Positions 2,436 through 63,698 of a stretch of DNA of 64,000 nucleotides are shown in pieces. The stretch comes from Ginglymostoma cirratum (lineage: Eukaryota): contig JAHRHZ010000271.1 in NCBI GenBank assembly GCA_024137785.1, positions 8,113,150-8,177,149 on the forward strand, in the 5' to 3' direction. The notes under the pieces are model-generated. The model saw only the letters and a program-made list of their open reading frames with translations, was not told the origin of the DNA and made no database searches. The translations under genes and the position numbers were made by a program. Each line of letters opens with the position of its first letter. The stretch's first letter is position 1.

Positions 2436-2576
2436 AAAACACAAGCTTTCTGAGCATTGCTCCTTCTTCAGGTGTTAAAGCTTGTGTCATCAAATAAACC
2501 TGTTGAACTATAACCTGGTGATGAGTAACTTCTGATGTTTTCCACCCCAGTCCAACACCAGCACCTCCACATCATG
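2436..2576. mobile_element. Short PLE terminal-repeat insertion, HHR family C
   Basis: 11-bp TSD gcccatttttg at 2425-2435 and 2577-2587. Minus strand 2440-2474 reads CAC-CUGAAGA-AGGAGC-AAU-GCUCA-GAAA-GCUU-GUG. Related to 10608-10784. Confidence 0.7.
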
Positions 2577-2699
2577 GCCCATTTTTGCTTACATGTTTTT
2601 ATTTGTGGAGAATGGTAATACATTAATTAATGCCGAGCAACAACAGGTCTGTAAAGGGGATGCTTGGTTGCTTGCAGGGCTGTTTTGTGATGAGAAAAT

Positions 2700-4960
2700 A
2701 GGAGGACAGAACTCCTGAGGGGAGGGAGCAAATTTTGCAAGTGGCTTTCAGATGACTGGACTGGTGGAACCTAAGTGACCCTCACGCCAATGAGACCATC
2801 TTGGGTTGGGCTCTGTTCTGCAGCTAGTTCCTTGGCTACTTCATGCTTCTCCTAGTCATCCTCCTCCCTAGTGCTCTGTTTCCAGTTTATTCTGCAAGTT
2901 CAAACCTCACTGCTGTGCGTGTTGTGCAAAGTGCAGCACACCATAACCATTCTGGAGGGCTGAGGGAGTGACTGTTGAAGGACACCTCCAAATTTGTTTA
3001 GATGCCACTATTTAAGAAGGGTGGTAAGGGAAAGCCAGAGAACTATAGACCAGTGAGCCTGACATTGGTGGTGGGCAAGTTGTTGGAGGTTGTCCTGAGG
3101 GACAGGATTTACATGTATTTGGAAAGACAAGGACTGATGAGGGACAATCAACATGGCTTTGTGTGTGAGAAATTGTGTCTCAGGAACTTGATTGAGTTTT
3201 TCAAAGAAATAATGAAGAGGATTGATGAAGACAGAGCCATGGCTGTGATCTATGTGGACTTCAGTAAGGCATTCAACAAGGTTTCTCGTGGTAGACTGGT
3301 TAGCAAGGTTGGATCACATGGAATAGAGGGAGAGCTAGCTATTTGGATACAGAACTGGCTCAAAGGGAGAAGACAGAGGGTGGTGGTGGAGGGTTGCTTT
3401 TCAAACTGGAGGCCTGTGACCAGCGGTGTGCCACAAGGATCCGTGCTGGGTTCACTGCTTTTTGTTATTCATATAGATAATTTGGATGTGAACATGGGAG
3501 GTACAGTTAGTAAGTTTGCAGATGACACCAAAATTGGAGCTGTAGTGAACAGCGATTAAAGGTTACCTCTGAGTACTACGGGATCTTGATCAGATGGGCC
3601 AGTGGGCCAAGGAGGAGTGGCAGATGGATTTTAATTTAGATAAATGTGAGGTGCTGCATTTTGGAAAGGCAAATCAGGGCAGGAGTTATACACTTAATGG
3701 TAAGGTCTTGGGGAGTGTTGCTGAACAAAAAGACCTTAAAGTGCAGGTTCATATTTCCTTGAAAGTGGAGTCGCAGGTGGATAGGGTAGTGAAGAAGGTG
3801 TTTCGTAAGCTTGCCTTTATTGGTCAGTGCGTTGAGTATAGGAGTTGGGAGGTCATGTTGTGGTTGTACAGGACATTGGTTTGGACACTTTTGGACTCCA
3901 ATGTGCAATTCTGGTCTCCTTATGGGAAAGATGTTGTGAAACTTTGAAAGAGTTCAGAAAAAATTTACAAGGATGCTGCCAGGGTTTGGACAGTTTGAGC
4001 TATAGGAACAAGCTGAATAGGCTGGGGCTATTTCCCTTGGAGAGTCAGAAACTGAGGGGTGACTTTATAGAGGTTTATAAAATCATGGGGGACATGGATA
4101 GGTAAACAACCGAGGTCTTTTCCCTGGGGTGGGGGAGTCCAAAACTAGAGAGTATGGGTTTAAGGTGAGAGGAGAAAGATATAAAAGGGAGCTAAGGGGC
4201 ACCGTTTTCATGCAGAGGGTGGTACATGTGTGAAATGAGCTGCCAGAGGAAATGGTAGAGGTGGAACAATTACAACATTTAAAAGGCATCTGGATGGGTA
4301 TAAGAATAGGAATGATTTAGAGGGATATATGGAACAAATGCTGGCAAATGGGACTAGATTAATTTAGGATATCTGGTCGGCATGGATAAGTTGGACCAAA
4401 GGGTCTATTTCCGTGCGGGACATCTGTGACTCTATCATGTGAAGCATGTGTTGATTTGCTCAATGACCTATGATGTTGTTAAATCTTGCATTATGTTGTT
4501 TCTTGGCTTTATGTGTTTAGTCACTCACTGGTGTCAACAGTCACTGTTTAATTTAGTATCAATTGTTTCTAACTAGCCAGGTACAGTTACAGCACCCTGA
4601 AGATTGCCAGTGAATTTTTTGTACATTTGTATAAATATCTCTTTTGTGGTTGCACACCAGCTGCACCTTTGATGATAATGAATATCCCTGGGTGAGCCTC
4701 AATTGCCACGTGCGTGCTGGCAATGATGACCAACATCTGTAGGAAGACAGCTTAGATCCACCTGCTCACTGGCATCAGTGTTGACAAAGTTGACTGTAAG
4801 GAACAAAAGGCAGAGAGATTTAGAGCGCTGTAAGGTTTGGTAAGCCACTGCTAAAGGATAGCCATTAAGTCAACTTGAAGCTGGTCTTATTTCTGAAGGA
4901 TGCAAGTATATTCTACCACCTGACAGAAGGCCCTAAGCCTCCTGAGGCACTGATGTTCTG
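2700..4960 (-). mobile_element. Degenerate Harbinger (HARBI1-like DDE) transposase, split by a CR1 insertion
   Basis: Minus-strand motifs: GGVLQ...SRMVMVCCTLHN near 2910-2990; LLTPV...VIEQ near 4440-4545; IASTHVAI and QLVCNHK near 4640-4735. These correspond to the HARBI1-family IDCTH, QLVCD, IE and CCxLHN motifs. Confidence 0.75.
2995..4435 (+). mobile_element. 5'-truncated CR1 LINE (RT domain and 3' UTR), pseudogenised
   Basis: ORF 3002-3559 contains NYRPVSLT, YVDFSKAF, SGVPQGSVLG and KFADDTK; downstream LRGDFIEVYKIM; tail ends in gactct. Confidence 0.95.
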
Positions 4961-5009
4961 ACTTATTAAGGAAGACACCCGTCTGTCAGCAGATGGTGCG
5001 CCAGTTATT

Positions 5010-8984: not shown

Positions 8985-10210
8985 ATTTTTCTTGTAAAAA
9001 TATGTACTTTATTTATATTTTAAAAAAGCTATCTTTAAGTACATACAAAGGGTATTAAAACTGTTCTGTACAGTCCTTGCAAAAAAAATAAGCAACACAT
9101 AGGAATTTGACATTCTCTAGAGCTCCCCACAGTTCCAAAACAAAGGCATTTTCTCCTCCTGCAGGAAACTATTTCCATTCATTTTTGAGGCACCAAGAGG
9201 GTCTGACTATTGAGTGGATTGTTGTTATGCTTTGGCAGAAAGGCCTCAGATGGTAGTCTTTCCTCATTACGCTTTTTCGGCAGCTGCCCCAAGCTTTAGT
9301 GCATCCCTCAGCACATAGCCCTGGACCTTGGAAAGTGCCAGTCTGCAACATTCTGATGAGGTCAACTCCTTGCTCTAGAAGACCAACAAGTTTCAGGCAC
9401 ACCAAAGAGTATCTTTCACAATGTTGATGGTCTTTTAGGTGTGTCAATGTTTGTCTCAGTGTGTGTCCCAGGGAGCAGACTTAGAGCACAGAGTCCTGTG
9501 TCATGGAGCTGTAAGGAACAAACCTTGACAAAAATAACTGCATCACTTTCCAGAACTTCTGAGTAAAGATATATTCCAGGAGATGCATGACCATCTCTAC
9601 CCAACCTAACTCCCCACTGCCCCGCAGTCACTTTGAGGGCAGCATGTGGTGGCACAGACTGACTGGGTGTACATGAAGGATCTCACAAGTAGTGTCCTCC
9701 TCACCATCAGCCAAGTGATGCCATTGCACTTGTTGGAAAGCTCTGGTGATGAGGCATTCTGCCAAATGACTTTGACAGCCTGCTCAGGGAAATCACCCGA
9801 TAAGATCCACCCAATCCTTTTCCTGCAGGGTCTCAGGCGTTACCTGCTGACCACTTCCTGATGGACTTGTGTAAAAGGTGCTTTTCTTTGCAAATTTCTT
9901 CACAAAGGACAGGTAATATGGAACGGTCCAACTACTTGGAGTGTTACATGGCACGAGGCCAGTCCCATCCTTCGCAACACCAGGGACAGGTAGAACCTCA
10001 GTATGTAGTGACACTTTGGTGTTTGCGTACTGAGGGTGTATGCACAGCTTGATGCAGCCACACACAAAGGTGGCCGTCTGGATGAGGGTGCTTGGAATTG
10101 TCGCCACTCTCGGGTTCACATCCTCTATTGGTTGAGACAGCGAGTGAACCACCAGGAAGAAAAGAGAATGGTAAAAAGAGGCAGGCCAACTACTATGATG
10201 ACAGCAGGGC
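8985..10210 (-). mobile_element. L1-clade Tx1-like LINE, 3' part
   Basis: ORF 9793-10284(-) has ATFVCGCIKLCIHPQYANTK...SSWTVPYYLSFVKKF, typical of the fish/shark Tx1 ORF2 C-terminal region; polyA signal and A-rich end near 8985-9015 on the minus strand. Confidence 0.75.
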
Positions 10211-10607
10211 ACTTTCAATTTGTTTTTTCTGCAGTGAGCAAATGCCATTGTAATGCTGGCTGACATAAATCTTCCATGTTGCAATGATGTAAATTCTTTG
10301 TAGCACTATAAACAATATTGAGAAATTCAGGTGGGTCTGCATAGGCCTGTAAAATATTCCAGAATGTCATATTCCTTTGAGGATTTATCACAGAATTGGA
10401 TTGGAGTCTTGTCTGTTTATGGGAAGCTTTTAAAATAAAAATAGACTCATGTTTTAACCTGTTAAACATTTAAATATGGTCCAGCTGCTGATAATACTGA
10501 TTTTTAAAAAGCTGTTTGAATTGGATGTGGTCTGTGAACTGATTAGGTATGTCTGTTAAGAGGTTCTTAACCACGTTAAGAACTATAGAGGTGGCATGCA
10601 CAAGAAT

Positions 10608-10784
10608 CATATGACACCAGGTTATAGTCCAACAGGTTTATTTGAAAACACAGCTTTCGGAGCCTCACCCCTTCTTCAGGTGTTAGTCTCTTGTATTTTC
10701 AAATAAACCTGTTGGACTATAACTTGGTGTCGTGTGATTTCTGACCTTGTACACACCAGTCCAACACTTGCACTTCCATATCAG
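10608..10784. mobile_element. Palindromic PLE terminal-repeat mini-element, HHR family C
   Basis: Inverted arms gacaccaggttatagtccaacaggtttatttgaaaa / ttttcaaataaacctgttggactataacttggtgtc; 10-bp TSD gcacaagaat at 10598-10607 and 10785-10794; CUGAAGA...GAAAGC motif on the minus strand between the arms. Confidence 0.75.
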
Positions 10785-14581: not shown

Positions 14582-14834
14582 CGGGGTTAAAATTGTATCA
14601 GAGATAATAGGTACTGCAGATGCTGGAGAATCCGAGCTAATAAGGTGTGGAGCTAGATGAACACAACAGGCCAAGCAGCATCGTAGGAGCAGGAAAGCTT
14701 GACGTTTCGGGCCNNNNNNNNNNNNNNNNNNNNNNNNNNNNNNNNNNNNNNNNNNNNNNNNNNNNNNNNNNNNNNNNNNNNNNNNNNNNNNNNNNNNNNN
14801 NNNNNNNNNNNNNAGCTCCACACCTTGTTATCTC
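14582..14834. mobile_element. PLE (Neptune-type) inverted terminal-repeat insertion spanning an assembly gap
   Basis: Left arm is close to 17790-17902; the right of the gap is its reverse complement (agctccacaccttgttatctc); 13-bp TSD gtaacaataggcc at 14569-14581 and 14835-14847. Confidence 0.8.
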
Positions 14835-16471: not shown

Positions 16472-17789
16472 ATCAGGATAGGTGTGGAGAAGTTGTTTTC
16501 ACTTGTGGGAGAGTCTAGGACATAAGAGAGTAAGCATACATCCATTTAAGATAGATGATGACGAATGTTTTTCTCTCAAAGGATAGTGCATCTGTGGAAT
16601 TCTTTCCCACAAAGGACTGTTAGATCTGGGTAATTCAGTTTATTCAAGACTGAGAGATTTTTAGTCAGTAGTGGAATTGAAGGTTATGGGGAAAAGGCAG
16701 GAAAGTAGAACTGAGGATTTGAGATCAGCCCATGATCTCATTGAATGGCAGAGCAGTCTTGATGGCCTGAAAGGTCTATCTCTGTTTTGACATCTTCCGG
16801 AAATGCAGCCATTTGGTTTCTTTGTTGATTGTGAATAGAAGTTCATTTATGGTAATGTTTGAATGCTTCCCTGTGCATGATGATCCACTACTGAACAATG
16901 ATAGGATACTGTCTGCAGTGGGCATTGGGACTGCAGTTAGGGAGAGTAGTAATGTGGGATGTGGCTAAGCTGTATGGCCTTGTAGATAAATAGCAACTGA
17001 AGCAAAAAAAAAAAGAAGTTTTAGGTGTGAGGAAGTGTCAGCCATGTCAACAACATGTAGTAAGCTGTGTGAATTTGTGATTGCTGTGCCACTACTTTGA
17101 CAGTGAAGGGCATCTCTGCAGTGCCATATTTGGCTAAACGTTCAGCCAGTGTTTCAGGATGGTTCCATTGCCAGGAATGCCAGTCTGTTCTTGGATATCC
17201 AGGCAGTGGCAAGTTCTCGTGGCTACAGCAAAGGGGAAAATCAGGCAAACATCAGGCATGAGGCATGCCATAGGAGTGGGATATGTAGTTAATGAGATGA
17301 GTTTGGGATAATTCTGTAGGAAAACTCACTCGGCCTTGCTGAGAGAAGCCCTCTATATAACTCAATGAAATTGACACTTGCCAAAAACATGTGCAATTCA
17401 GCACCGAAGTTTTTAAATATTTTCAGAGCTCTCAACATGAGGATATTTTCTGATCTATGTGGATGCAGGTTGTTCTGGCAAATGCTTGGAGTCTAACTCT
17501 GTTCAGTCTCCCAAAATATTGCTGCTGGCATCCATGAAACTGTGAAAATTTTTTATTTACAGCTGGGTTTGTATCATCTTCACATATTGTCAGAGTTGCT
17601 TCTTCATTCCAGCTTGATCAACTTAATCATGTGATTCTGATATCATTATTACATCATTACGTATGCTTCTGATGTTAATTCCATTACTCCAAATCAGGAA
17701 ATTTTCTGAACTATGTGAACATGGCTGCCAAAATTGCTGCTCAGTTAATGCCATCATGACTAGGTGCCGCAGACTTTGACATTTAACTC

Positions 17790-18676
17790 AGAGATAAAAG
17801 GTACTGCAGATGCTGGAGAATCCGAGATAACAAGCATGGGACTGGATGAACACAGCAGGCCAAGCAGCATCATAGGAGCAGGAAAACTTGACGTTTCGGG
17901 CCTAAACCCTTCATCAGAAATGGGAGAGGGGAAGAGGGTTCTGAAATAAATAGGGAGAGAGGGGGAGGCGGATAGAGGATGGATAGAGGAGAGGATAGGT
18001 GGAGAGGAGGCAGACAAGTCGAAGAGGCGGGGATGGAGCCAGTAAAGGTGAGTGTAGGTAGGGGGGTAGGGAGGAGATAGGTCAGTCCAGGGAGGACGGA
18101 CAGGTCAAGGGGGCGGGATGATGTTAGTAGATAGGAGATGGGGGTGTGGCTTGAGGTGAGAGGTAAAACAGGTTAGGGAGGTGGAGATGAGCTGGGCTGG
18201 TTTTGGGATGCGGTTGGGGGAGGGGAGATTTTGAAGCTTGTGAAATCCACATTGATGCCATTGGGCTGCAGGGTTCCCAGGCTGAATAGGATTTGCTGTT
18301 CCTGCAGCCTTCGGGTGGCATCACTGTGGCATTGCAGGAGGCCCAGGATGGACATGTCATCTGAGGAATGGGAGGGGGAGTTGAAATGGTTTGCGACTGG
18401 GAGGTGCAGTTGTTTGTTGCGAACTGAGTGCAGGTGCTCTGCAAAGCGGTCCCCAAGCCTCCGCTTGGTTTCCCCGATGTAGAGGAAGCCACAACGGGTA
18501 CAGCGGATGCAGTATACCACATTGGCAGATGTGCAGGTGAACATCTGCCTGATGTGGAAGGTCTTCTTGGGCCCTGGGATTGGGGTGAGGGAGGAGGTGT
18601 GGGGGCAGGTGTAGCACTTCCTGCGGTTACAAGGAAAAGTGCCGGGTGTGGTGGGGCTGGAGGGGAGTGTGGAGCG
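17790..18676 (-). mobile_element. Young 5'-truncated Penelope-like element (Neptune clade): GIY-YIG endonuclease plus terminal repeat
   Basis: ORF 18173-18544(-) NVVYCIRCTRCGFLYIGETKRRLGDRFAEH, preceded by a Cys-rich linker (PGTFPCNRRKCYTC); CpGs retained; 12-bp TSD gacatttaactc at 17778-17789 and 18677-18688. Confidence 0.92.
17886..17921 (-). ncRNA. Minimal type I hammerhead ribozyme motif (family A)
   Basis: AUUU-CUGAUGA-A-GGG-UUUAGG-CCC-GAAA-C-GUC/AAGU: intact core, 3-bp stem II, palindromic ACGU stem III, 4-bp stem I including a GU pair. Confidence 0.75.
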
Positions 18677-20089
18677 GACATTTAACTCTGTGCTTTTAAG
18701 TTCAGAGACCCAGGAGATGTGCTCTTCAGCCCAATTATATCATATTCTTTTTCTCACTGACCTAGTGGTCTATCCATCTGGGAAAAGAAAAGTTAATTGA
18801 CACAAGTTGTTTTGTTTTCCTTTTTCCCAAAGCAAAGGGTCTGCCTTCTGTATTTTGCAGCAGGAAGACCCTGGTGACAACCCATCTGTTTGAAAACAGA
18901 AGTTTTTATTTTCCTCTCCTCTGATGAGTGAGAAGGAAAAAATGTAGCCTGTTCAGCTTGCCTAAACTAGAGCTTTCTACTCTTACAATGGCCCGTTTTT
19001 AAGTTGGAAAAGGTTTTGGGTAAAACAAGCCAAGAAAAGAGCAAGTAAGTGAGAATGTTTGGAAGGAGGCACTGCCACGGTGGAACATGAGAATGTACAA
19101 GACTAGAAGAGGCCACTTTGAACCATTTTAGCTGACAGTGTAATTTGACTACAATGCATTACCTATTATGTCAGCCTTTTGATTGACCAAATGCTTGTCC
19201 AATTCCCTATTTAAAATTACCAATGTTGTTTGATCATGAACCTAATTGGCCATCTTTGTATACAAAACTGTACAAAACAGCATCGTGGTTTGCTTAAACA
19301 AAGTCATTGTAGATCAATGTAGCATACTGGTGTTTCCATGTAGCATATTGGTGTTTCCCTTCATTATGCCAATTGATGAAAACCTGAACCTGTGTCCATC
19401 CAGGTTAATGGGTTCTCATTCTCAACATGCGATCATTGGAAAAAATTGAAATGAAGGCTGGGTACTTGCGCAGTTCCCTAGAGCAGGTTGCATTTACTGG
19501 GAAAAGGGTTGAGAAAGGAAGAAATAGAATCTCCACATTTGAACTGAAATTGAGTTTCAATTGTCCCAGATGATGTCTTGATTAAAATGCAAATGTACAA
19601 TCATAAAAACTCACATTTAAACTTTCTTTATGCAAAGACTGAAAGTGCTAGAATGACTGTTGGTCGGCACAACCGACCTCTTCAGGGCAGTATAAAGAAC
19701 CACCTATTAGAACCAGCTTCAGGCAGTCACACAATAAAATTATGTTTTAATAACAATACTTCTGCGAAAAAATAGATAATCCACATAACAGTGCCGTATT
19801 TACATGAGTACTGTCACAGGAACATGAAAACATCATTGTACCCCATCTGTGCCATCATGAAACTTCAGTATGAGCAGCAGGAATGCTTTGGACCTGTGCC
19901 TGTAAATTTCCATATCGTACAAAACTAACCTAACCTCACCTCTGACCCCATGTAAGGTCCAATGGAAAAATGGACTTAGGCAACACAGAGATCACCAGTT
20001 TAAACCCACATCATTCTTCACAAGAGAAATATTCTCAAAAGATTTACTTTCTTCCTGAGTGATTCACACTAGGGTTGATTCTCCAGGTG

Positions 20090-21084: not shown

Positions 21085-21330
21085 TAAAAACCAAAAGAAC
21101 TGCGGATGCTGTAAATCAGAAACAAAAAACAGAAATTGCTGGAAAAGCACAGCAGGTCTGACAGTATCTGCGAAGAGAAATTAGAGTTAACGTTTCAGGT
21201 CTGGTGACCTTTCCTCAGAAATTCCTCCAGTTCTTAGGAAGGGTCACCAAACTCAAAACATTAACTCTGATTTCTCCTCACAAAAACTGTCAGACCTGCT
21301 GAGCTTTTCCAGCAATTTCTGTCTGTGTGT
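21085..21330. mobile_element. Palindromic PLE terminal-repeat mini-element with two opposed HHR motifs (family B)
   Basis: ~90-bp inverted arms (acagaaattgctggaaaagc...tcagaa / ttct...gcttttccagcaatttctgt). Minus 21186-21221 reads CUGAGGA-A-AGGUC-ACCA-GACCU-GAAAC-GUU/AAC with an intact core; the plus-strand copy is degenerate. Confidence 0.8.
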
Positions 21331-28727: not shown

Positions 28728-28826
28728 GAAACAAAAACAGAAATTGCTGGAAAAGCTCAGCAGGCCTGGCAGCATCTATGGAGTGAAAGCAGTTAACATT
28801 TTGGGTCTGGTGACCTTTCCTCAGAT
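28728..28826 (-). repeat. PLE terminal-repeat fragment (family B, degenerate HHR)
   Basis: Matches the left arm of 21085-21330. Confidence 0.75.
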
Positions 28827-29950: not shown

Positions 29951-30579
29951 TAATCCATATAAATCCATCTAAATATTTTTGACACTTGAACCACAAAATG
30001 GTTTCATTTGAATTTTACTTGATGTAACATATATAACTTCATCAATTGGTACAAATTTGGGTATTTCTGTGGCTCCAGTAATTTAATTGTGGCAATTATG
30101 ATAGAATCATTGAGAAACTTGGAAGAATTTTGTTGGAATTATGAATGCAAGAGCAAAGATGTTAGTAACAACAAGAGAATTATAGATAAATTGCCTGGAT
30201 GATGTTTTAAGGGGAGAAAAGGTAATTAGAAATGCATTTGAACTTTAAGTAGGAATGATCAGTAGGGGGATAAATGAAAAGAGTAAGTGACCATTTTTCC
30301 AGTCTTCATGTATTGACTCTGTTTTGCCATTGAAGGTCCAAAACCCTTTTTCACTCCTGAGTAAAGGTAACACATGAAAAGTGTCTGTGGTTTCTTCTCA
30401 CTTCTTGGCGAGTACACCCTCATTGGAAACTAGTCACAATTTGACATGTTGCCAAATGTTATAGGGGACTGAACAAAGTAAGCTATGGTAAGATCTGTGA
30501 CAGAATCGCACAAATCGGCAAGGCTTATCTCAATGTCAGGATCATTTTGCAATATCTTTAATACTTTTGACAAACAGAA

Positions 30580-31412
30580 TGAGTCCATGCTGGTCCACTC
30601 TTCCTTCACTCCCAACACCTACTCACGGCACCTTCCCCTGCAACCACCAAAGGTGTAACACCTGCCCATTTACCTCCTCCCTCCCCAAAATCCAAGGACC
30701 CAAACTTACCTTCCAGGTGATGCAACATTTCCCCTGCACTTGCCAGAATTTAGTCTATTGCATTTGCTGTTGATAATGTGGTCTCCTCTATATTGGGGAA
30801 ATGAAGTGCAGACTGAGATGCTCTGCAAAGCAGTCACCATGTTTTGCCTGCCAACAAGACCCTGAGCTTCCAGTTGCCTGCCACTTTAATACACCACCTT
30901 GTTCCCTGACTAGTATCTCTGTCTCTGGCTTGCTGAAGTGTTCCGTTGAAGCTCAACGCAGGTTGGAAGAACAACATCTTATTTTCGGCTTGGGGACCCT
31001 GCAGCCCTCCGGACTCAATATAGAGTTCAATAATTTTAGGGCCTAAACTCTCCCATGTCCTACCCTGCTAACCCACACATGAGGCCTTGTTATCACATGA
31101 TCTGCCATTACACACTACCTATTATTAGTCACTAGCAGCCTCCATTACCAGCTATTCACCCTCCTAACCAGATTGTTGTCAATTCCTTTTGCCTATCCAA
31201 CTGCTCTTCTCTCCCTTTGGGCTCTATCCCCACCTATTGTTTACACCTTACCCCCTCCCCCTCCCTATCTTCTGCATATAAAATGACATTTTCCAAGCTA
31301 CCATCAGTTCTGCGGAAGGGTCACTGGACTGGAAATGTTAACTGATTTTTTTTTTTTCCTTAACAGATGCTGCCAGACCCGCTGAGCTTTTCCTGCAACT
31401 TCTGTTTTTGTG
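30580..31412 (+). mobile_element. Penelope-like element (Neptune clade), degraded GIY-YIG plus family-B terminal repeat
   Basis: GTFPCNHQRCNTC, NLVYCICC*xCGLLYIGE, PVACHFN, LGTLQPSGLNIEF; ends in ctgcggaagggtcactggactggaaatgttaac...gctgagcttttcc. Confidence 0.9.
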
Positions 31413-34257: not shown

Positions 34258-34749
34258 ATAGTAGGAACTNNNNNNNNNNNNNNNNNNNNNNNNNNNNNNN
34301 NNNNNNNNNNNNNNNNNNNNNNNNNNNNNNNNNNNNNNNNNNNNNNNNNNNNNNNNNNNNNNNNNNNNNNNNNNNNNNNNNNNNNNNNNNNNNNNNNNNN
34401 NNNNNNNNNNNNNNNNNNNNNNNNNNNNNNNNNNNNNNNNNNNNNNNNNNNNNNNNNNNNNNNNNNNNNNNNNNNNNNNNNNNNNNNNNNNNNNNNNNNN
34501 NNNNNNNNNNNNNNNNNNNNNNNNNNNNNNNNNNNNNNNNNNNNNNNNNNNNNNNNNNNNNNNNNNNNNNNNNNNNNNNNNNNNNNNNNNNNNNNNNNNN
34601 NNNNNNNNNNNNNNNNNNNNNNNNNNNNNNNNNNNNNNNNNNNNNNNNNNNNNNNNNNNNNNNNNNNNNAGGCCCGAAACATCAGCTTTCCTGCTCCTCT
34701 GATGCTGCTTGGCCTGCTGTGTTCATCCGGCTCTACACCTTGTTATCTT
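34258..34749. mobile_element. PLE family-A terminal-repeat insertion spanning the 400-N gap
   Basis: Left of the gap gatagtaggaact resembles the repeat start; right of the gap aggcccgaaacatcagctttcctgctcc...caccttgttatct is the reverse-orientation arm containing the GAAAC half of the HHR. Confidence 0.7.
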
Positions 34750-36239
34750 GTATTAAATAGAAGGCCTTGCCTTGGCAGTTTAGCAATTCATGGAGTCTTT
34801 TGCCACACTTGACAAGAATTTACAAGTGAGCCACGAGAGGGGAAAATGGACAAAGGGCACATGGAAATGGGGACCAGGGTTTTCAAAGCCCAATTGGGAT
34901 TAATGTGGAGGCAGCTGGATGTGAATATCCAAGCCACTGGAAGACCTGTTACTTAACTGGCACCATCCTGTTCCCTGACCATTTGCCTTGGGAAAACATG
35001 GCCAGGTCAGCAGAATGCCTGCCCAAAATCAGAGGGTTCCCAATTTTTAGAATATTTGAAAAGGCCTTTAGGGCTAATTGTCAGGCATTGACTGGAAATT
35101 TCCAGTTGAGACATCCAGGATTAGGCAAGCTGCCTGTACATGGCCTCCTAACAGACCAGGGCCCAGCACCCACAAGCTGGCTACAAGGCCCTCTTGCCTT
35201 CTGGCTGTTACAGTGGTTGCAGGCTGCCCAGTGTTTGGGAACTATCTTCACAATGCACCCTAGCAGCTAAAGATAGGTTCACTTGCTTCTGTTAAGTGGC
35301 ACTGCAGGATTCTGCACCTTTTAAAAAGTTGCAGTTAGACTCCAGCTTCAGGCCCATTTATTGCTCATCCCATGGCAGATCGTGGGTAGGCCATTGGCAA
35401 GGGCAGCATACATTTGGTTGCCTGTCATATCAAAGTCTCCATGTAGGTGGTAAATGCTATTCATGAAGATGGACATCAGCGCGGAGGCTTGAGGTGTCAT
35501 GCACTCACTCTAGAGAACCTCCTCCAAACTTTCTCCATAATGTGCAGTGTCTCTGGATACTCTCCTGGAATTGTTCATGTTTTTCTGTTGCAACTCCAGA
35601 TGCCCCTCGTAGTGGATGACCCTGACCCGGAGTCTGAGAGTCTGTACCAGCAGAACCAAGCTTGGTACCCTTTGGCACTGACTTTCCTCCGTTCCTTCCT
35701 GCTTCTAAATCCTGCCTCTGCTCTCTTGTGATGTCTGTCTCACTATTTGACAACCTAGCTATCCTCCGTTGAAAGTTTCATGCAAGTGTGTATATCTGCA
35801 CAGGTGCCTTATGCACATCTGTCATGTCACACTGCTTTGTCAGAGTGCGTTATTTTTAACCATATGAATTTTACATACAAAATATTTAAGGGAGGCCATG
35901 ATATCTTGACAGTAGACAAGATGCAAGCAAATCTTCCAACGCTACTGTTATTCATTGCTTTTACAATTAGAGTTAACATTTACAAGATTCGTTATGTGCC
36001 AGTCTTGCAGCCCGAAGGGTTTTACCCAGTTTCTAGCCACTGTGTGATAAGGCTGAAAGGCTTTACGTAGTGGTTTTTCCTGTTTGTGTCCGTAGCTCCA
36101 AGTTTTAATGCATCTCTCTGCACATAGTCCTGGACTTCATAATCAAGTGCACCAGACTGTCATATTTTGGAGGTCTCTTTGATCTGGGGGGCCAGCAAGT
36201 TTTGGGTTGTCAAAAAAGCAGCTTTCCCCTAGTTGGTGG

Positions 36240-45095: not shown

Positions 45096-46234
45096 TGTTA
45101 AAGTTGGTTGGCTTGCCAAGCTGGTTTGTTGTTCCATGTTTCATTACCATGCTGGGTAACATCCTTAGTGCATACTCCGATGAAGCGTCGGTGTGTTTTC
45201 CCACCTGGTTTTTAAGCTGTGGAGTCCATTAAGCTGGATTGCCTCACTTCCGGTTTTCCGTCGTAATTGAATGTATATGGGGTTGAGTTCTGTGTTTATT
45301 AATGGCTTTCTTAATGGAGTGTCAGGCTTCTCGGAATTCCCATGGCTGTCTCTGCTTAGCTTGTCCCAGGATTTTGGTGTTGTCCCAGTCAACTTGGTGG
45401 TTCTCCTTATCCATGTGGATTGAGGGGAGTGAGTATTGGTCGTGTCTTTTTGTAGCCAGTTGGTGTTCGTGTACCCTTGTTGTCAGTTTCCTTCCTGCTT
45501 GTCCAATGTAACGTTTCTCTCAGTCTCTGCAGGGGATCTTGTAGATGACATTGGTCCTGTCCATGGCAGAGGAGTGGGTCTTTAGTTCAGTGAGCAATTG
45601 TCGTAGGGTTGATGTGGGCTTGTGTGCCACTCTGCCCACCACAAGACTCCTACAACCACTGGGCATCAGAGTGGCACACTGGCCCACATCAACCCTACAA
45701 CAACCGCTCACCCGAACTAAAGACCCACTCCCTCGCCACGGACAGGACTAGTGACATCTACAAGATCCCCTGCAGAGACTGAGAGAAACATTACGTCGGA
45801 CAAGCAGGAAGCGAAACTGACAACAAGGGTACACGAACACCAACTGGCTACAAAAAGACACGACCAATACTCTCGCTCCTCTCAATCCACGTGGATAAGG
45901 AGAACCACCAGTTCAACTGGGACAAGCTAAGCAGAGACAGCCATGGGAATTCCTAGAAGCCTGGCGCGCCACAAAAAAAACATTAATAAACACATAGAAC
46001 TCGACTCCATATGCACTCCACTACGAAGGAAAATCGGAAGTGAGGCAATCCATCTCAACAGACCCCAGAGTTTTAAAAACCAGGCGGGAAAACACACCAA
46101 CGCTTCATCGGACGGTGCACTGAAGATGTTACCAAGCACGGTAACGAAATGTCTGCTGAACAACAAACCAGCTCAGCGAGCCAACCAACCTCCACACCCA
46201 CAACCCGAGCTACAAATCTACTCCAAAACCTTAG
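45096..46234. mobile_element. Penelope/Poseidon-clade PLE as a large inverted duplication of the GIY-YIG end and terminal repeat
   Basis: Left arm (minus, ~45100-45625) and right arm (plus, ~45630-46232) both encode IYKIPCRD.EK.Y.GQ.GR.LTTRVHEH; degenerate TSD atattcaagaaagcc / acattcaggtaagcc. Confidence 0.9.
46117..46156 (+). ncRNA. Minimal hammerhead ribozyme motif (family D)
   Basis: GCA-CUGAAGA-U-GUUACC-AAGCAC-GGUAAC-GAAA-U-GUC/UGC: intact core, 6-bp stem II, 3-bp stem I. Confidence 0.75.
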
Positions 46235-47399
46235 ACATTCAGGTAAGCCATTTGCATTACCCAACGTGTTGATGTCAAATGGACCTAGTGGGAGAGCAGC
46301 TTTGGAACTTGTAGGAGTTAAACCTACTTCTAATTCTCCTTCTAGTGTCTATCACAATGCCTACGATGTCTCTCCAATTTGAATTTGGTAATTCGAAGTT
46401 CCTAACAACCAACAAACAAATTAGGTTTAAGACCAGGGCCTGTTCATGTTAGACTAGCAAGTGTTTTTTTTTTTCCCCTACCACACCAGGCTAACTGGGC
46501 CTTGTACCTTAGAATAAGATAGTTGTAGCACACCTACCCTCTGGAGAGTGGTGCTGATGACAGCATACAATGCCGTGGTCAGCCTGAGGACTGATTTGTA
46601 TTCTCATATACAGCGAAATAAATGTTTCCCAAACCTGAAAACCCTGTCAAGCCTCTCTCTTAAGTTCGTTTCTCATCATTTAGTTAAGAGCCTTAGATTT
46701 TTAAAAACTCTGCTTAGTGATTAACTGGTGAGTTTCCTCTGTTGTCATGATGTCATAGTTTTATGGGGAGGTTAACTTAAATAATTGATTTAGCTGTTAC
46801 TATTTATGTCTCCCAGATCTTATCTCACCGAAAAATTAGGAATCTTTTAACATTACTTTTTTGTGTATAGATTTAATTTTATTGTCCAAATCCGATTCTA
46901 AAATATTTGTAATTGCAATAAATGATACAATATATGCAACACTTTAATGGTTATGTATCTGATCAAATTGACAGCATTAGGAATTTGTTAATTAATTGTT
47001 CTGGCTAATTTTATGGGCCTTTTTGTTTTGTTTTAAACTTCATGTTTACCTGTGGACTTCACCCATGGCTGCCTGTGTAGTAACGTCTCTATACTTTTTG
47101 TTCTCTCCCAGCTGGTGTCATATTGAAGGTCACCACTCTGTCACCACTTTGCCAGCTACCTACAGACTCATCTCCAACCGACTGCTTTGCCCCCGCACCA
47201 CATTCCAGCAGACTTCGTGACTGGTGACACCCCCTAGACTGCTCTGCGCAGGCCTTGACCCTCCCCACCCCCTAATTGAAACTCTTACCCTTTTTTTTAC
47301 TGGCGTACTTCCTTGCACTGGTAAGATCCTTCCTGCATTCCCTCATAATAAGATTGTTTACGTAGCTGTGCAATGTAAAATCCAAAACCTTAACGTACA

Positions 47400-50189: not shown

Positions 50190-50302
50190 CTGGAGGAACA
50201 CAGCAGGCCAGGCAGCATCAGATAATCTCTGCTGCCTGGCCTGCTGTGTTCCTCCAGCTCCACACTGTATTATCTTGGACTCCAGCATCAGCAGTTCTTA
50301 CT
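50190..50302. repeat. PLE family-A-related mini palindrome
   Basis: Perfect 28-bp inverted repeat (50190-50217 / 50230-50257) with a 12-nt loop; sequence related to 17800-17880. Confidence 0.85.
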
Positions 50303-51619: not shown

Positions 51620-51742
51620 ATGAAACAAAGAAACTGTGAATGCTGGAGGTCCGAAACACCAAATAATGTGCTGGTGAAATTCATCAGGTCTGGCAGCATC
51701 TTAAAAGTTAACATTTTAAGTCTACTGGCCCCTCATCAGAAC
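51620..51742 (-). repeat. PLE terminal-repeat fragment (degenerate HHR)
   Basis: Family-B-like; CUGAUGA present on the minus strand but GAAA mutated. Confidence 0.6.
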
Positions 51743-52724
51743 ATTAGAAAAGAAAGTATATGGGTTTAAAAGGGTCAATACTTGATGGCACTTGCTGCAA
51801 ATGTGGTAATTTGAGGACTTTGAAGTGAAAAGGAGCTGTTATGAGACAGAGCTGAGGCTAGTGTGTTCTCAGCAGTTTCTGTAAGTAATATAGGTCATAT
51901 CCAAGTAATCTATAAATAGTAACAGCACTTCATATTATTTACTTAATGAGACTCTTCTAGTTAGACCAGAAAGGTTGCTATCCACACAATGCCATTTCAT
52001 GCTTGGAGAAACCCATACACTCAATACAAAGCCACAGTTGAGGTTTGCACAGTCAAAATCTGTTGCCATTTCTTTTAGCTGGACCCTAAACTTTACAAGT
52101 CAAATTATGGCTCAAAACTGGCTGGTCAGACATCTATTTTTAAGAGGCAATAATCTTGGGTCCCAAAGCTTGTCCACTGACATTGTCAATATCTTAGCAT
52201 TTAGATTCCACCCCATAATCCTAAAATAAAAGTTAATTCTCTCCTTTGAGAGAGCTGCCTTTGATGTTTGCTCAATACCCCTTCTCTCAAAAGGAGGTAA
52301 AATTGCAGGTTAAGTCATCTTGTCCTGCTTTCACTTTATGATCTAGTAGCATTAGCCACGACTATGACAGTAGGTTAACTAGGTGCTCTCTCATTATGCA
52401 AGATGTAGAACAAGAGTAGCAGTTAACAGATGTGTAGTTAAGGGAATTACTTTTGTTTGGCTGCATAAAATCTTTAAAACAGCATCAGCTGTTGTACTTG
52501 CTTCACTCTGTTGTTTTCCCACTGGAGGGTCAAAAGTGCATGAGAGTCAAGGTTTCATTGTCAGTTCGTTGTGGCACAGCTGTCATGTGGATTGGAATGG
52601 TACATGATGTGGATGTGCCACACTCTCATTGAGTTATGTAAAATACTGGACAAAATAAAATCATTCCAGAAAAATTTGGCTGTCAGCTATTGCTGGAATA
52701 AAATATTGGTTAGGCCTTAGCTAG

Positions 52725-53765
52725 AGTATTTTGTGCAGGTCTAGAATTCATATCATAGGAGGGATGTGATTGCATGGAAGATGCAAAAAGGAAATTTATC
52801 AGGGTGTTGCCTGGGCTGGACTGTTTTAGTTATGAAAGGAGATTGGATAGATTGGGATTATTTTCCTTGATGCAGAGGAGACTGAGGGAGGACATGTTTT
52901 GAGACGTATATAAAATTGAGGAGCATCGATAGAGTGGACATAAAGTAATGCTTCCCTAATAAGGCAAAGAACTGTGAATGTTCCCCATTGGGGAGGCACT
53001 GGCCTAGTGGTATTATTGCTGGGCTGTTAATCCAGAAACCCACGTAATGTTCTGTGGATCTGGGTTCGAATCCTGCCACGGCAGATGGTGGAATTTGAAT
53101 TCAATAAATATCTGGAATTAAGAGTCTAATGACGACCGTGAATCCATTGTCAATTGTCGGAAAAACCCATCTGGTTCACTAATGTCCTTTTTAGGGTAGG
53201 AACCTGCCATCCTTACCTGGTCTGGCCTCGTGTGACTCCAGACCCACAGCAGTGCGGTTGACTCTTAACTGCCCTCTGGGCAATTAGGGATGGGCAATAA
53301 ATGCTGCCGAGACAGCGACGTTCTCTTCCCATTAACGAATAAAGGAAAAAAAATGTTGGAAATCTGAAACAAAAACAGAAATTGCTGGAGAAACATAGTA
53401 TGTCGGGAAGCGTCTCTGGAAGAAAATAGAGTTAACTTTGAGTCAAGAGACCCTTCTTCAGAACTTTACTGAATGGTTGATCGATCACTGAGGGGCATGG
53501 AGGGGCAGGAGATTTTGAGGGTATGTGAGGAAACGTTTTCTTACCCAAAGGATAGTGGGACTCCAGAGTTCACTGCTTGTAAGGGTGGTAGAGACAAAAA
53601 CCCTCTTAGTGTTTAAGTATATAGATTTGCACTTGCAATGCCCAGGCAAACAAGGTTATGGACTAAGCGCTGGAAAATGGGATTAGAATAGTTAAGTGCT
53701 TGTTTTTGATGAGTGTAGAGTCAATGAGCTGAAGTCCCTCTTCCTGTGCTGTAGACCTCTATGAC
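52725..53765 (+). mobile_element. CR1 3' fragment with a nested PLE repeat and SINE
   Basis: RRLREDMF-like segment and CR1 3' UTR; interrupted at ~52960-53465. Confidence 0.75.
52990..53353 (+). mobile_element. Young tRNA-derived SINE with CR1-like tail
   Basis: A box TGGCCTAGTGG, B box GGTTCGAATCC, tail gggcaattagggatgggcaataaatgctg shared with the local CR1-like LINE 3' ends, A-rich end. Confidence 0.88.
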
Positions 53766-53824
53766 ATGATCCTCAATGCTTTGAAAATGCTGCAAAGAAT
53801 CAACTATTCAAATCCACACTTTGG

Positions 53825-55800: not shown

Positions 55801-56274
55801 TTTGTGATGCTTCCAAGCCAGGAAGAATTTGGTTAGGAATCTGCAGGATTTAGAATTGAGAAAGCGTAGGCTGTCAGATTCCTGGAAAGTTCTTGTTGGC
55901 AGAATTGGAATGGACTCGAGGAATTGTCCCCACAGTCCATGACACAGAAATTTCAGGAGTCAGCAAAGTAGAAAGTTTTAAAGTTGACATGGGGTGATAA
56001 TTTCTCAGGATCTGAGTCTCTGTAATGGATAGTGTCAGGAAACATGTTGAAACTGTTTCACTGTGTGTTTTGAAATCGTTCTGTCTTCCATGCTTTGGCT
56101 TGGTTTTTTACCTGATTCTTCAATTGTGTAATAAATGTTTCTTATGTTAAAGAAAATTTGCAGCCTTGTGTGTATGTGTATCAATGATGACAATCGTGTT
56201 AATAAAATAAACAAAATGTAAACGTGTGATCTATTGAACTCCATCATTCACCTTCCTAAACTTGAAAATTTGTC

Positions 56275-56460
56275 TCCGTTCCTTCAGTGTTGCTGGGTCA
56301 AAATCCTGGAATTCTCTGCCTAAAACAGCAATGTGGGTCTGCCTATAGCATGTGGAATGCAGCAATTCAAGAAGGCAGCTCACCTCATCTTAAGGGCAGC
56401 TAGGAATGGGCAATAAATGTGGACCATCCAGTGACACCAAAGTCCCACAAGTGAATAAAA
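56275..56460 (+). mobile_element. CR1-like LINE 3' tail
   Basis: ccttcagtgttgctgggtcaaaatcctggaa...gggcaataaatg. Confidence 0.75.
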
Positions 56461-59189: not shown

Positions 59190-59330
59190 CTGTTCTGAAG
59201 AAGGGTCACTGGACCCAAAATGTTAACTCTCCTCTCCTACCAGAGGTGCTGTCAAACCTACGGAATTTTTCCAGCAATTTCTGTTTGTGTTTCAGATTTC
59301 TAGCATCCACATTTTTCTTTTTTTTTTGTT
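59190..59330 (+). repeat. PLE family-B terminal repeat; HHR with core G12 mutated
   Basis: GUU-CUGAAGA-A-GGGUC-ACUG-GACCC-aAAAU-GUU/AAC. Confidence 0.75.
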
Positions 59331-59502: not shown

Positions 59503-59635
59503 CTGTTCTGAAGGGTCACTGGACCCAAAATATTAACTCTGCTTTCTCTCCACAGATGCTGCGAGATCTGAGTTTTTCCAGCAATTTCAGTTTTTGTTTT
59601 GGATTTCCAACATCCACTGTTCTTTATTCATTTTT
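59503..59635 (+). repeat. PLE family-B terminal repeat, degenerate HHR
   Basis: Near-copy of 59190-59330 with a 3-nt core deletion. Confidence 0.75.
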
Positions 59636-60664
59636 TGAAAATATTTGGCTGCATACTTTTTTTTTGTCAAGGATCATTTTGCTCTGTAACTGTAGACGGA
59701 ATTATTGATGGTTACTGGTTATAACCAGTTGGGAGAAATTTGAGGTGAAGAATTCAAAGCATTACAGAGGATGCTAGCCATCAACTTAAGAGCATTGGCT
59801 TTAAATATGAATTTACTCATTGCTTTCTCTTAGAATTCACCTAGTAGTGCTCTGCACACTGCATGCAGTAGATCTGTTCTCAAAGGAGCATACAGAGTCA
59901 GAAAAGCCCATTTGAATAATAGTTATTTGAGGAAGGCTCTGAAAAGTGGCTGGCATTTGTGAGACTAGATTGAGTGCCTCAGATGATAAGAGCAAAGCTG
60001 GAGAGACAATGAAGAAAACAGATATCCCAGATGTCATCAAATGACATTTCATTGTATAATAGCGACTTGTCAAATGGCTATGTATGCTTTGTAATTGCAC
60101 TTGATCAGGGCTACTGAGTATGAGATAAGATGACAAGATCTCAGGAAGAGGCTTGTAGTAAACATTTCCATTGAAGAGTCTGTCTGAAGGACACAACGTT
60201 AAGGAAAAGGCTTAGTTTGCCTATTCAAAGGACCCTATGTCTAAAAGAATTCAGACTAGCCATGTAAAGTACTTCCTCAATGGAATGTAGTAATATTCGT
60301 GACTTTGTGTGTGGTGATGCCTGAAACAGATACAATCTTCCCTATATTTTAACTAATCCCATGGTGTAAATAATTTGAATCCCTTGGTTACATCCATTTA
60401 GCATACCATTAGGGCCAGAAAGAATAACTTGTCTGAGGAAAGATGGAAATAATTTAATCTAGTGTAAAACTGACCATGAGCTAATTGTGTTTTGCATAAT
60501 CATGTAAGAATACGAATTTATTTTACCCAATAAATGTTATGAGCTGAATTGCATGGCAAAAGTGCCCGAAGTGTTTTGTTTAGTTTCTTTTCTTTCTTTC
60601 TCTCCCGAGTAAATGCCCCCATGATTTGGAAAAGTCTCTGATACGCATACTGAACCCTAACAGT

Positions 60665-61410: not shown

Positions 61411-61805
61411 CTTCCTGTAATATATAATAAATACCTCTGAAATTATAGAAAAGTTTGAAATAATTTACCTTAATTGCCTTTCTGCTGTGTTGGTCCCACT
61501 TGCCCAACTGTTCTTTCAGTGGGACAATAAGGTAAAAGCTAAGGCCAGTCAGCCCATTGATCTTGATCCTTTGTTGTATTTCATTTTGCCTGACCAGTCG
61601 TTCAATCTTTAATCCCCTAATGCCTCTGATGTCAGTATCTTCTATGGTTGACCATTCCAAATTTTTATCACGTTTCAGTAAATAAAACACTTCATAAGAT
61701 CTGTTCTGAATTTTGCTCTTCAGTGATTTTATTTGCCTCTTAATTTTTCCGATCTGCTAGGACTGATTTTTGAAATAGAGATTTAAAAAGTTAATTATAA
61801 ATTTT

Positions 61806-63698
61806 AAGGTTTTGGAGTAGATTTGTAGCTCGGGTTGTGGGTGATGAGGTTGGTTGGCTCGCCGAGCTGGTTTGTTGTTCCGCAGATATTTCGTTACCCT
61901 GCTGGGTAATATCATCAGTGCAGCCTCCGGTGAAGCGTCGGTGTGTTTTCCCACCTGGTTTTTAAACTCTGGGGTCCGTTGAGATGGATTGCCTCACTTC
62001 CGGTTTTCCTTCATAGTGGAGTGTATGTGGAGTCGAGTTCTATGTTTATTAATGGCTTTCTTCGTGGAGTGCCAGGCTTTTAGGAATTCCCATGGCTGTC
62101 TCTGCTTAGCTTGTCCCAGTCGACTTGGTGGTTCTCCTTATCCATGTGGATTAAGAGGAGTGAGTATTGGTCGTGTCTTTTTGTAGCCAGTTGGTGTTCA
62201 TGTATCCTTTTGTTGTTAGTTTCCTTCCTGTTTGTCCAATGTAATGTTTCTCTCAGTCTCTGCAGGGGATCTTGTAGATGACATTGGCCCTGTCCATGGC
62301 AGGGGTTGGGTCTTTAGTTCAGGTGAGCAGTTGTCGTAGGGTTGATGTGGGCTTGTGTGCCACTCTGATGCCCAGCGGTCGTAGGAGTCTTGTGGTTAGT
62401 TCCGATGTGTTCCTGATGTATGGTAGTGTGTGTGTGTGTCAGGACTTGTGGTCTGCCTGATGTTGTTCGTGTAGGCATCTTCTGACCCAATTTTTTGGAT
62501 ATCCGTTATCCTTGAAAACCTGGAAGGGGTATTCTTCTTCCTCTTGGCGTAGTTCCGTGTTGCTGCAGTGTGTTGTTGCCCATTTAAACAGTGTTCGCAC
62601 GCAGCTTCGTTTGTGTGTGTTGGGATGGTTACTGTTGAAGTTCAGTACCTGGTCCGTGTGTGTGGTTTTTCTGTGTACTTTCGTTTGGAGTTCCACATTT
62701 GTCTTAAGCTGTACCATGAAGACCAAGAAAGGGAGCTGTTTGTTCTTCTCTCTGGTGAATTTTATTCTGGTCAGGGTGTTGTTTATAAGTTTGTGTGTGT
62801 CTCCTCTAGTTTGGTCCATCTTAATGATGACAAAGGTGTCATCCACGTAGTGTATCTATCGTCTTGGGTGGATTAGCGGAAGGGCCGTCCTTTCTAGTCT
62901 TTGCATCACTGCCTCTGCTATGAGTCCGGAGATGGGTGTCCCGTTGATTTGTTCGTATGTTTGGCCGTTGAAAGTGAAGTGGGCGGTGAGGCATAGGTCC
63001 AGTAGTTTGAGCACGTTGTCTGTGGAGATGGTTTCACTGGGGTCTTGCTCTTGTTCCAGTAGTGCTGTCATTGTTTCCCTTGCTAGTTGTATGTCTATTG
63101 ATGTGAATAGGGCAGTGACATCAAACGATATCATGGTCTCCTCGTCGTCTATCCTTATGTCTTTTGATGTAGTTGAGGAACTCTTGGCCTGAGTGGATTG
63201 AGTGGGGTGACTTGCTGACGAGGTGCCCGAGTGTCCTTTGTAGTTCCTTGGCTAATCTGTGTGATGGAATGCCTGGCAGGGAGACTGTGGGTCTAAGGGG
63301 TACTTCCGGCTTGTGCACTTTCAGGAGGCCATAGAATCGGGATGTGTTGGTTCCTTCAGTTTTCATTTTTAAGAAGTCTGCTTTGTTGATCACTCCTGTC
63401 TAAGTCTTTTTAGTGTGTAGAGGATTTTGTTGCCTAGTTGCGGTGTCAGGTCAGTTTGTACTGGCCGGTATGTGTTCTCATCGGCGAGCAGTGCCTGTGC
63501 CTTGGAGATGTAGTCCCTTTTATTCAGTATTACTGTCATGTGCCCTTTGTCTGTGGGTAGTATAGTGATGTTCTAGTCCTTCCAGGGCCTGTCTTTCCAA
63601 TGTGTTGAGAGTGTTGAGTTCGCTCCTTCTGGCTAGTGACGGGATTACTGTCTGCCTTATCGTTCGTTGTGTTTCTTCGTTGATGTTGTTGGTCCTGC
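61806..63698 (-). mobile_element. Penelope/Poseidon-clade PLE: RT, GIY-YIG and terminal repeat, frameshifted
   Basis: FYGLLKVHKPEVPLRPTVS, ISFDVTALFTSI, YEQINGTPISG, YVDDTF, VHRKTTHTD, IYKIPCRD; terminal repeat matches 46030-46232. Confidence 0.95.
61882..61921 (-). ncRNA. Minimal hammerhead ribozyme motif (family D), partly mutated
   Basis: GCA-CUGAUGA-U-AUUACCC-AGCA-GGGUAAC-GAAA-U-AUC/UGC; A-C mismatch at the base of stem II. Confidence 0.6.

What the first reader, a model, noticed from the sequence alone, without database searches (positions are those of the whole stretch)
2436..61921. Four families of hammerhead-ribozyme-bearing Penelope repeats scattered through a neuronal gene locus
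Seen: about 15 full or partial CUGANGA-stemII-GAAA-NUH motifs in 64 kb. Family A: 17886-17921, with halves at the edges of both gaps. Family B: 21186-21221, 21230-21265, 28792-28826, 31306-31342, 51707-51742, 53430-53465, 59192-59227, 59504-59537. Family C: 2440-2474, ~10650-10682. Family D: 46117-46156, 61882-61921, ~45130-45170. The best-preserved copy of each family has an extra nucleotide after A9 and a near-palindromic 4-nt stem III (ACGU, AGCU, AUGU), while stems I and II differ between families yet still pair. Established: PLE terminal repeats carry minimal type I hammerheads thought to cleave as dimers. Inference: several PLE lineages have seeded this shark genome with very many ribozyme motifs, at a density I am not aware has been documented for sharks.
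Basis: partly seen in the sequence, partly recalled or inferred. Interest (0 to 1): 0.7.

Follow-up and report, generated by a model that had tools for sequence, protein, structure and literature searches.

The report
Shark Penelope hammerhead relics, four families
These motifs are copies of a tiny hammerhead RNA of an already described kind, carried at the ends of four Penelope-type jumping-gene families in a shark genome that holds over 110,000 intact-looking copies; most in this window are mutated and likely inert, and the short copies mostly start at the motif's front edge rather than where it would cut.

Summary
All 16 listed motifs are present. They are minimal type I hammerheads in the 3' pseudo-LTRs of four Penelope-like element (PLE) families: three with a Neptune-type zinc linker, one Poseidon-type, each tied here to RT or GIY-YIG coding sequence. 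Helices I and II covary between families. Only 5 of 16 keep an intact core; AUGU is CpG decay of ACGU. The assembly has 112,939 intact-core motifs (reversed control 215), 60,717 from one young family. That exceeds published minimal-hammerhead counts (coelacanth about 4,000, Xenopus about 9,000), and six searches found no shark count. The window's density (about 240/Mb) is ordinary for this genome (185/Mb, CI 143-231). The 'neuronal gene' was not identified. About 40% of unselected copies of families A-C begin at the 5' edge of helix I and about 6% near the cut site; two-armed inserts pair a long with a short tail (33 of 39). This likely records an RNA starting at the ribozyme and copied uncut from two internal sites. 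Cleavage is untested. This scan already reported the same stubs in this and other shark genomes. Known kind, new host lineage.

The parts
17788..18700 (-). Family A, young 5'-truncated PLE: Zn-linker plus GIY-YIG, 3' pLTR, intact hammerhead (core 17917-17890), long tail
   Evidence: GIY-YIG E=1.6e-5; 98% to reference
14597..14713 (-). Family A copy, hammerhead 3' half plus tail, at the edge of an N run; an opposite-strand tail end lies on the far side, so likely a collapsed two-armed insert
34670..34754 (+). Family A copy, hammerhead 3' half plus short tail, at the edge of an N run
50190..50299 (.). Family A two-armed remnant of tails only, no hammerhead
21085..21328 (.). Family B two-armed insert: minus arm from -2 to +132 (intact core, 21218-21189), plus arm from -5 to +95 (two core changes)
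28730..28825 (-). Family B stub starting at helix I, G12>A
30501..31411 (+). Family B long copy: broken Zn-linker/GIY-YIG, 3' pLTR, hammerhead at 31310 with A6>C
51650..51743 (-). Family B degenerate stub, G12>A
53353..53465 (-). Family B stub starting at helix I, deletion in GAAA
59189..59325 (+). Family B stub starting at helix I, G12>A
59503..59636 (+). Family B stub, deletion in CUGANGA and G12>A
1749..1845 (+).
2432..2574 (.). Family C two-armed insert: minus arm from -6 with intact core (2471-2443), plus arm from about +22 to +119
10605..10783 (.). Family C two-armed insert: minus arm from -8 with a damaged NUH, plus arm is tail
45103..46235 (.). Family D two-armed insert with GIY-YIG fragments: minus-arm hammerhead at 45169 (broken), plus-arm hammerhead at 46120 (intact core)
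61803..63830 (-). Family D Poseidon-type PLE, broken RT and GIY-YIG, 3' pLTR with intact-core hammerhead at 61918-61885

Best explanation
The 16 motifs are minimal type I hammerheads inside the 3' pseudo-LTRs of four Penelope-like retrotransposon families, and their number reflects the copy number of these elements, with the dispersed copies likely inert passengers. In a full-length parent two hammerheads lie about 3.5 kb apart in one transcript (shown for family A) and would cleave only as a dimer or with the element's protein (from the literature, untested here). Inferred mechanism of the stubs: the element's RNA likely begins 3-6 nt before CUGA; the RT-endonuclease, probably a dimer, primes at two internal sites about 35-40 nt apart (the two tail ends) on uncut RNA and runs off the RNA's 5' end, giving 100-135-nt stubs; when both nicked strands are primed, a two-armed insert with one long and one short tail results.
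For: PLE coding sequence upstream of each family: A, B (31), C (46), D (29, 30). Near-full A elements with two same-strand hammerheads 3,546 and 3,646 nt apart (L223, L230). Covariation: helix I pairs 1-3 and helix II pairs 2-4 take 3-4 different pair types across A, B, C, D; own strands pair 31 of 32, swapped strands 41 of 96; 15.2-16.2 flips C-G/G-C. Counts 60,717, 6,889, 310, 1,460 and generic 112,939 vs controls 0, 0, 0, 0, 215. Two 3' ends per family. 5' ends at -12..+2 in unselected copies: A 42 of 104, B 51 of 121, C 14 of 28; at the cut +-4: 5, 10, 1. 3' ends not enriched at the cut: 24 matches vs 29 and 43 at two control offsets. Long/short tail pairing in 33 of 39 two-armed rows against 21 of 45 long tails in solo stubs. 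Tandem micro-arrays restart at -3 to -5 with varying junction letters. PMC11167929: two RT start sites, both strands extended, uncut RNA is the main substrate.
Against: No cleavage or cap mapping was done. The polyA run shows no pile-up of read starts at helix I or at the cut (table 6), though a fragmented library of many copies could not show one. The 5' edge is ragged (-3 to -6) with no clear cap-derived G. Family D rarely gives stubs (1 of 18 unselected, 3 of 15 selected). In D. virilis the start site lies 121 nt upstream of this point, with an intron ending at helix I (PMC2377424 passages; PMC4209133). Confidence refers to the whole statement; the PLE-hammerhead identity alone is about 0.97, the RNA-start step about 0.55.
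Confidence: 0.75

Rival explanations
1. The stubs are self-propagating non-autonomous elements (SINE-like or retrozyme-like) that are transcribed and mobilised on their own, using the ribozyme.
For: Families B and C are mostly stubs (34 of 39 and 29 of 36 intact-motif copies); rare tandem arrays of 35-78-nt units exist; animal retrozymes are proposed to derive from PLE pLTRs (bioRxiv 10.64898/2026.07.22.740005).
Against: Stubs carry the same hammerhead and tail as ORF-bearing copies; their flanks and inversion junctions differ copy by copy; they lack the upstream pLTR; ends do not match the cut site as a cleavage-ligation cycle would predict. No tree of stubs versus long copies was built.
Confidence: 0.1
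2. The helix I boundary is not a transcription start but a structure-set end: 5'-to-3' decay or reverse transcription stops at the folded or protein-bound hammerhead.
For: Four unrelated upstream sequences give the same boundary, 3-6 nt before CUGA, equal to the length of helix I; the edge is ragged; no cap-G signal.
Against: In A and B the boundary falls on pyrimidine-A initiator-like letters (CCATTTC, TCAGTTC; the initiator consensus is recalled); monomers fold no better than shuffles in 4 of 5 cases, so a strong exonuclease block is not evident.
Confidence: 0.3
3. Some dispersed copies are active, host-relevant ribozymes that cut this gene's pre-mRNA (domesticated, like the intronic amniote hammerheads).
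For: 5 copies keep an intact core; family A sequence is abundant in polyA reads (55,471 of 12.9 million records).
Against: 11 of 16 cores are broken or incomplete, mostly by CpG decay; no two intact copies of one family lie on the same strand in the window; density equals the genome mean; single minimal hammerheads did not cleave in vitro (PMC4209133; PMC11167929); reads come from many copies.
Confidence: 0.04
4. Two-armed inserts arise when the cDNA folds back on helix I and primes its own second strand.
For: Inversion joints in reads cluster at the helix I strands; 5-6 B inserts share a junction near +13.
Against: In 20 of 39 rows the second arm is longer than the arm it would have been copied from.
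Confidence: 0.05

Closest known systems
Minimal hammerheads (min-HHR) in pLTRs of metazoan PLEs, Cervera and De la Pena 2014 (PMC4209133; results, discussion and part of methods read; supplement file 2 searched, file 1 not searchable)
   Same: Core, extra nucleotide after A9, G10.1-C11.1, palindromic 15.2-16.2, several covarying families per genome, mostly single dispersed copies, opposite-strand pairs 100-700 bp apart.
   Different: No shark in the text read or in the searchable supplement; reported counts are about 4,000 (coelacanth) and 9,000 (Xenopus) against 112,939 here, by different descriptors. The helix I boundary of stubs is not described in the parts read.
Poseidon PLE of Anolis (PAc), Frangieh et al. 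2024 (PMC11167929; main text read)
   Same: Hammerhead near the ORF start, two RT start sites giving the tail, both strands nicked and extended, uncut RNA used, no reads ending at the cut.
   Different: In vitro, one element; here genomic footprints in three Neptune-type and one Poseidon-type family. In family A the ORF opens about 130 nt after CUGA rather than in stem II.
EN+ PLE structure, Neptune and Penelope/Poseidon clades, Craig et al. 2021 (PMC8557442; passages read)
   Same: 5' truncation, partial tandems, inverted 5'-truncated copy, 30-40-bp tail often at one end only, assembly gaps at such inserts, Zn-linker in Neptune/Nematis.
   Different: Copy numbers here (hundreds of thousands of relics by extrapolation) exceed the near 37,000 maximum quoted for Naiads.
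Non-LTR retrozymes of animals (PMC7229834 passages; bioRxiv 10.64898/2026.07.22.740005 parts 1 and 3 plus passages)
   Same: Type I hammerheads at very high number (126,247 in axolotl); the preprint finds tandem forms in one chondrichthyan.
   Different: Those are tandem repeats, in axolotl with canonical hammerheads and circular RNAs; here copies are dispersed PLE ends with minimal hammerheads and tandems are a small minority.

Membership tests
PLE minimal type I hammerhead | CUGANGA, GAAA and UH core in type I order | tested here: met
   All family consensuses; 5 of 16 window copies
PLE minimal type I hammerhead | Unpaired nucleotide after A9 and G10.1-C11.1 | tested here: met
   (the filter assumed one extra nucleotide; one search left it free and found it in 18 of 20)
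PLE minimal type I hammerhead | Palindromic minimal helix III | tested here: met
   ACGU in A, B, D; AGCU in C
PLE minimal type I hammerhead | Covariation of helices I and II between families | tested here: met
   four independent families only, no R-scape statistic
PLE minimal type I hammerhead | Location in the pLTR of a PLE | tested here: met
PLE minimal type I hammerhead | Self-cleavage as dimer or with protein | not testable with these tools
   No assay; polyA reads show no end pile-up
EN+ Penelope-like elements | One ORF with RT and C-terminal GIY-YIG | tested here: met
   L228 702 aa: RVT_1 E=2.3e-6 (below cut-off), GIY-YIG E=4.5e-5; B, C, D from broken copies
EN+ Penelope-like elements | pLTR tandems, inverted truncated copy, 30-40-nt tail | tested here: met
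Neptune clade (A, B, C) versus Penelope/Poseidon (D) | CX2-5CxxC linker before the endonuclease | tested here: met
   Present in A, B, C translations, not seen in D
Neptune clade (A, B, C) versus Penelope/Poseidon (D) | Placement in an RT phylogeny with reference elements | not tested
   No named reference PLE proteins were on hand; Nematis not excluded
Non-LTR retrozymes | Tandem repeats with a hammerhead in each unit | tested here: not met
   No such tandem in the window; 2 same-strand pairs under 500 nt among the first 100 A hits; 49 matches for short-spaced tandems
Non-LTR retrozymes | Circular RNA monomers | not tested
   No suitable data
Canonical type I hammerhead (Rfam families) | Match to an Rfam hammerhead model, with loop 1-loop 2 contacts | tested here: not met

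The most novel reading that the evidence does not exclude
Carpet-shark genomes hold the densest hammerhead population yet counted in a vertebrate (over 110,000 intact cores, roughly half a million relics), and the relics record the PLE cycle in vivo: the RNA starts at the ribozyme, so cleavage would remove the cap with about 32 nt and act as an off or translation switch rather than make the template; a protein dimer primes both tail sites on one RNA; and three rare inserts with U-then-A-rich letters exactly at the cut are footprints of reverse transcriptase bridging a cleaved, tailed RNA.
Probability: 0.3. Interest if true: 0.65.

Novelty: new member of a known kind. Interest (0 to 1): 0.35.

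Why it matters
What the PLE hammerhead does is still open (PMC8557442 says it may only parasitise the element). A young family with 60,717 identical-core copies, near-complete ORFs and natural tandem arrays gives large statistics and ready constructs for testing where the RNA starts, whether it is cut, and how two-armed inserts form. For this locus itself the motifs are ordinary repeat debris.

Tried and rejected
Rfam scan: no hammerhead family, only chance miRNA-hairpin hits on palindromes. A recurring 457-bp minus/plus pair spacing suggested a MITE-like family; it is explained by 400-base N runs inside two-armed inserts. Fold-back priming was rejected. A 3' splice site at helix I was rejected because the boundary is ragged and family A has no AG there. 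Cut-site enrichment of 3' ends: none; these controls are imperfect for internal deletions because the tail is pyrimidine-rich. Family C counts beyond +55 were an artefact of a reference carrying a family A arm; corrected. Host gene: Pfam on 24 and 6 ORFs, three PDB sequence searches, one protein search and two ORF/exon scans found no host exon; no reads were laid on the unique parts of the window, so splicing evidence is missing. No listed sequencing holder was on record as RNA. Lunse et al. 2017 (PMC5785218) was not held and may list shark motifs; bioRxiv supplements were closed and would name the chondrichthyan and its counts.
Full report
Observation. A structural filter finds 8 motifs with at most one core mismatch against 0.4 in 20 shuffles, and 5 with none against 0. 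Only 5 of 16 keep an unchanged core; five family B copies have G12>A, the product of CpG decay, and two family A copies are cut by N runs. The AUGU stem III of family D is also CpG decay: ACGU is commonest (15 of 22). Rfam has no match, as expected for motifs without helix III.

What carries them. Family A at 17788-18700 follows a GIY-YIG domain (E=1.6e-5). Loci elsewhere give a 702-aa open RT-to-endonuclease frame (L228) and two near-full elements with same-strand hammerheads 3,546 and 3,646 nt apart (L223, L230). Of 49,001 candidates, the 150 best RT matches scored were 98-100% identical, so the family is young. Family B at 30501-31411 follows a broken endonuclease of the same type. Family C had no ORF in the window; long copies found through its upstream region carry broken RT and endonuclease ending about 500 nt before the motif. 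Family D follows about 2 kb of broken RT and endonuclease at 61803-63830. A, B and C have the CX2-5CxxC linker that marks Neptune/Nematis in PMC8557442 (passages); D lacks it and is read as Penelope/Poseidon. No tree was built. The closest named proteins to family A come from Rhincodon (94%), Stegostoma (89%) and Chiloscyllium (79%), so a carpet-shark host is inferred.

Structure. Family consensuses from 208 intact motifs in the fetched DNA keep the core, one extra nucleotide after A9, G10.1-C11.1 and a palindromic helix III. Helix I pairs 1-3 and helix II pairs 2-4 change on both sides between A, B, C and D; own strands pair at 31 of 32 positions, strands swapped between families at 41 of 96. 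This is four independent lineages, not a formal covariation statistic. Monomers fold no better than shuffles in 4 of 5 cases.

Number. Exact patterns count 60,717 (A), 6,889 (B), 310 (C) and 1,460 (D), with reversed controls of 0. A family-free pattern counts 112,939 against 215 in 4.36 Gb that includes much N. In 76 evenly placed 10-kb stretches (26 wholly N; 463,832 called bases) there were 86 hammerhead-covering copies including decayed ones, 185 per Mb (bootstrap 143-231). That extrapolates to roughly 0.4-1.0 million relics, depending on how much of the N is real DNA. The window has 15-16 in 63.5 kb where about 12 are expected, and its 60 kb of flanks have 19, so the locus is ordinary. Published counts: about 4,000 and 9,000 minimal motifs in coelacanth and Xenopus (PMC4209133), 126,247 canonical motifs in axolotl (PMC7229834 passages). 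Descriptors differ, so the comparison is rough. Six literature searches and one supplement search (one file unsearched) gave no shark count; a 2026 preprint found tandem forms in one chondrichthyan, a whale shark preprint notes PLE expansion in introns (passages), and Lunse et al. 2017 could not be read.

Anatomy of copies. Each family has two 3' ends 35-40 nt apart, the PLE tail that PMC11167929 ties to two RT start sites (main text). 5' ends pile up just before CUGA. Among copies picked for an intact motif, ends within 12 nt were A 21 of 51 (13 gap-adjacent dropped), B 34 of 39, C 29 of 36, D 3 of 15 (2 dropped); in B none fell between -8 and -154. Among copies not picked that way, ends at -12..+2 were A 42 of 104, B 51 of 121, C 14 of 28, D 1 of 18, and ends within 4 nt of the cut were 5, 10, 1 and 0 (decayed copies are trimmed by the aligner, which inflates the 'inside' class). 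Genome-wide, 32,038 young A copies keep the 8 letters upstream of CUGA, about half of 60,717. 3' ends are not enriched at the cut (24 matches vs 29 and 43 at control offsets). Two-armed inserts pair one long and one short tail in 33 of 39 rows (one insert counted from both arms), while 21 of 45 solo stubs have the long tail; in 20 rows the second arm is the longer, which excludes simple fold-back. Rare tandem arrays restart at -3 to -5 with varying junction letters, as if RT re-engaged after running off a fixed RNA end.

RNA. In a polyA run 55,471 of 12,895,792 records read lay on the family A copy at 90% likeness, equally on both strands, with no pile-up of read ends; a second run gave 470. 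These reads come from many copies and say nothing on this locus, on strand or on cleavage.

Mechanism. Shown: hammerhead architecture, PLE linkage, copy numbers, end distributions. From the literature: single motifs do not cleave, dimers cleave weakly (PMC4209133), and the Anolis motif needs the protein while uncut RNA is the main substrate (PMC11167929). Inferred: the RNA begins at helix I (0.55; a decay or RT stop at the folded motif, 0.3, is the main rival), a dimeric enzyme primes both tail sites, and the stubs are run-off by-products. In D. virilis the start lies further upstream with an intron ending at helix I (PMC2377424 passages), which weighs against a general rule. One lead points to cleavage in vivo: among 20 of the 24 copies with two pyrimidines after C17, three independent inserts have 6-8 U/A-rich letters exactly at the cut, repeated in both arms or units where there are two (L264, L265/L266, L271/L272). 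The class is tiny and its control imperfect.

Verdict. This is a known kind of element in a lineage where I found no published count. The scan's own notes already describe the same stubs and start-site reading in this and other shark genomes; these are not independent support.

Noticed in passing
L239 (G000:C87:27749700-27750600), L240, L241, L242: Pure hammerhead micro-arrays of family A: six units of 35 nt, five of 43-44 nt, three of 78 nt, with varying junction letters; natural dimer substrates and possible repeated template re-use by a telomerase-related RT.
   Followed up: partly
L264, L265/L266, L271/L272: U/A-rich insertions of 6-8 letters exactly at the predicted cut site with the tail continuing; identical in both arms or units of one insert, so present in the template.
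   Followed up: partly
L233 and L229; also the listing: Further hammerhead subfamilies with helix II GAGUC/GACUC and 16-17-nt stem-loops, and family C variants with GGAGU/ACUCC, beyond the four families named.
   Followed up: no
window 23679-23837, 38327-38435, 48704-48800, 50633-50909, 53001-53305, 55448-55754 and 24972-25184, 53826-54089, 56245-56465: Abundant short interspersed repeats without hammerheads, often next to family B stubs; SINE-like by recall, not tested.
   Followed up: no
window 3002-4105, 14859-15403, 36109-37029: Fragments of LINE reverse transcriptases (RVT_1 E=1.3e-19 for 3002-3556), CR1-like by recall.
   Followed up: partly
window 21624-22199 and 23839-24396: Local duplication of about 570 bp at 89% identity, 2.2 kb apart.
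   Followed up: no
window 9606-10305 and L235:7227-7707: A repeat with long open frames that mimics an exon; similar copy 80 kb away, unclassified.
   Followed up: no
G000, N runs of 10, 100 and 400 bases: Many short N runs abut family A copies (13 of 64 sampled), often in the middle of two-armed inserts, so counts from this assembly are lower bounds.
   Followed up: partly
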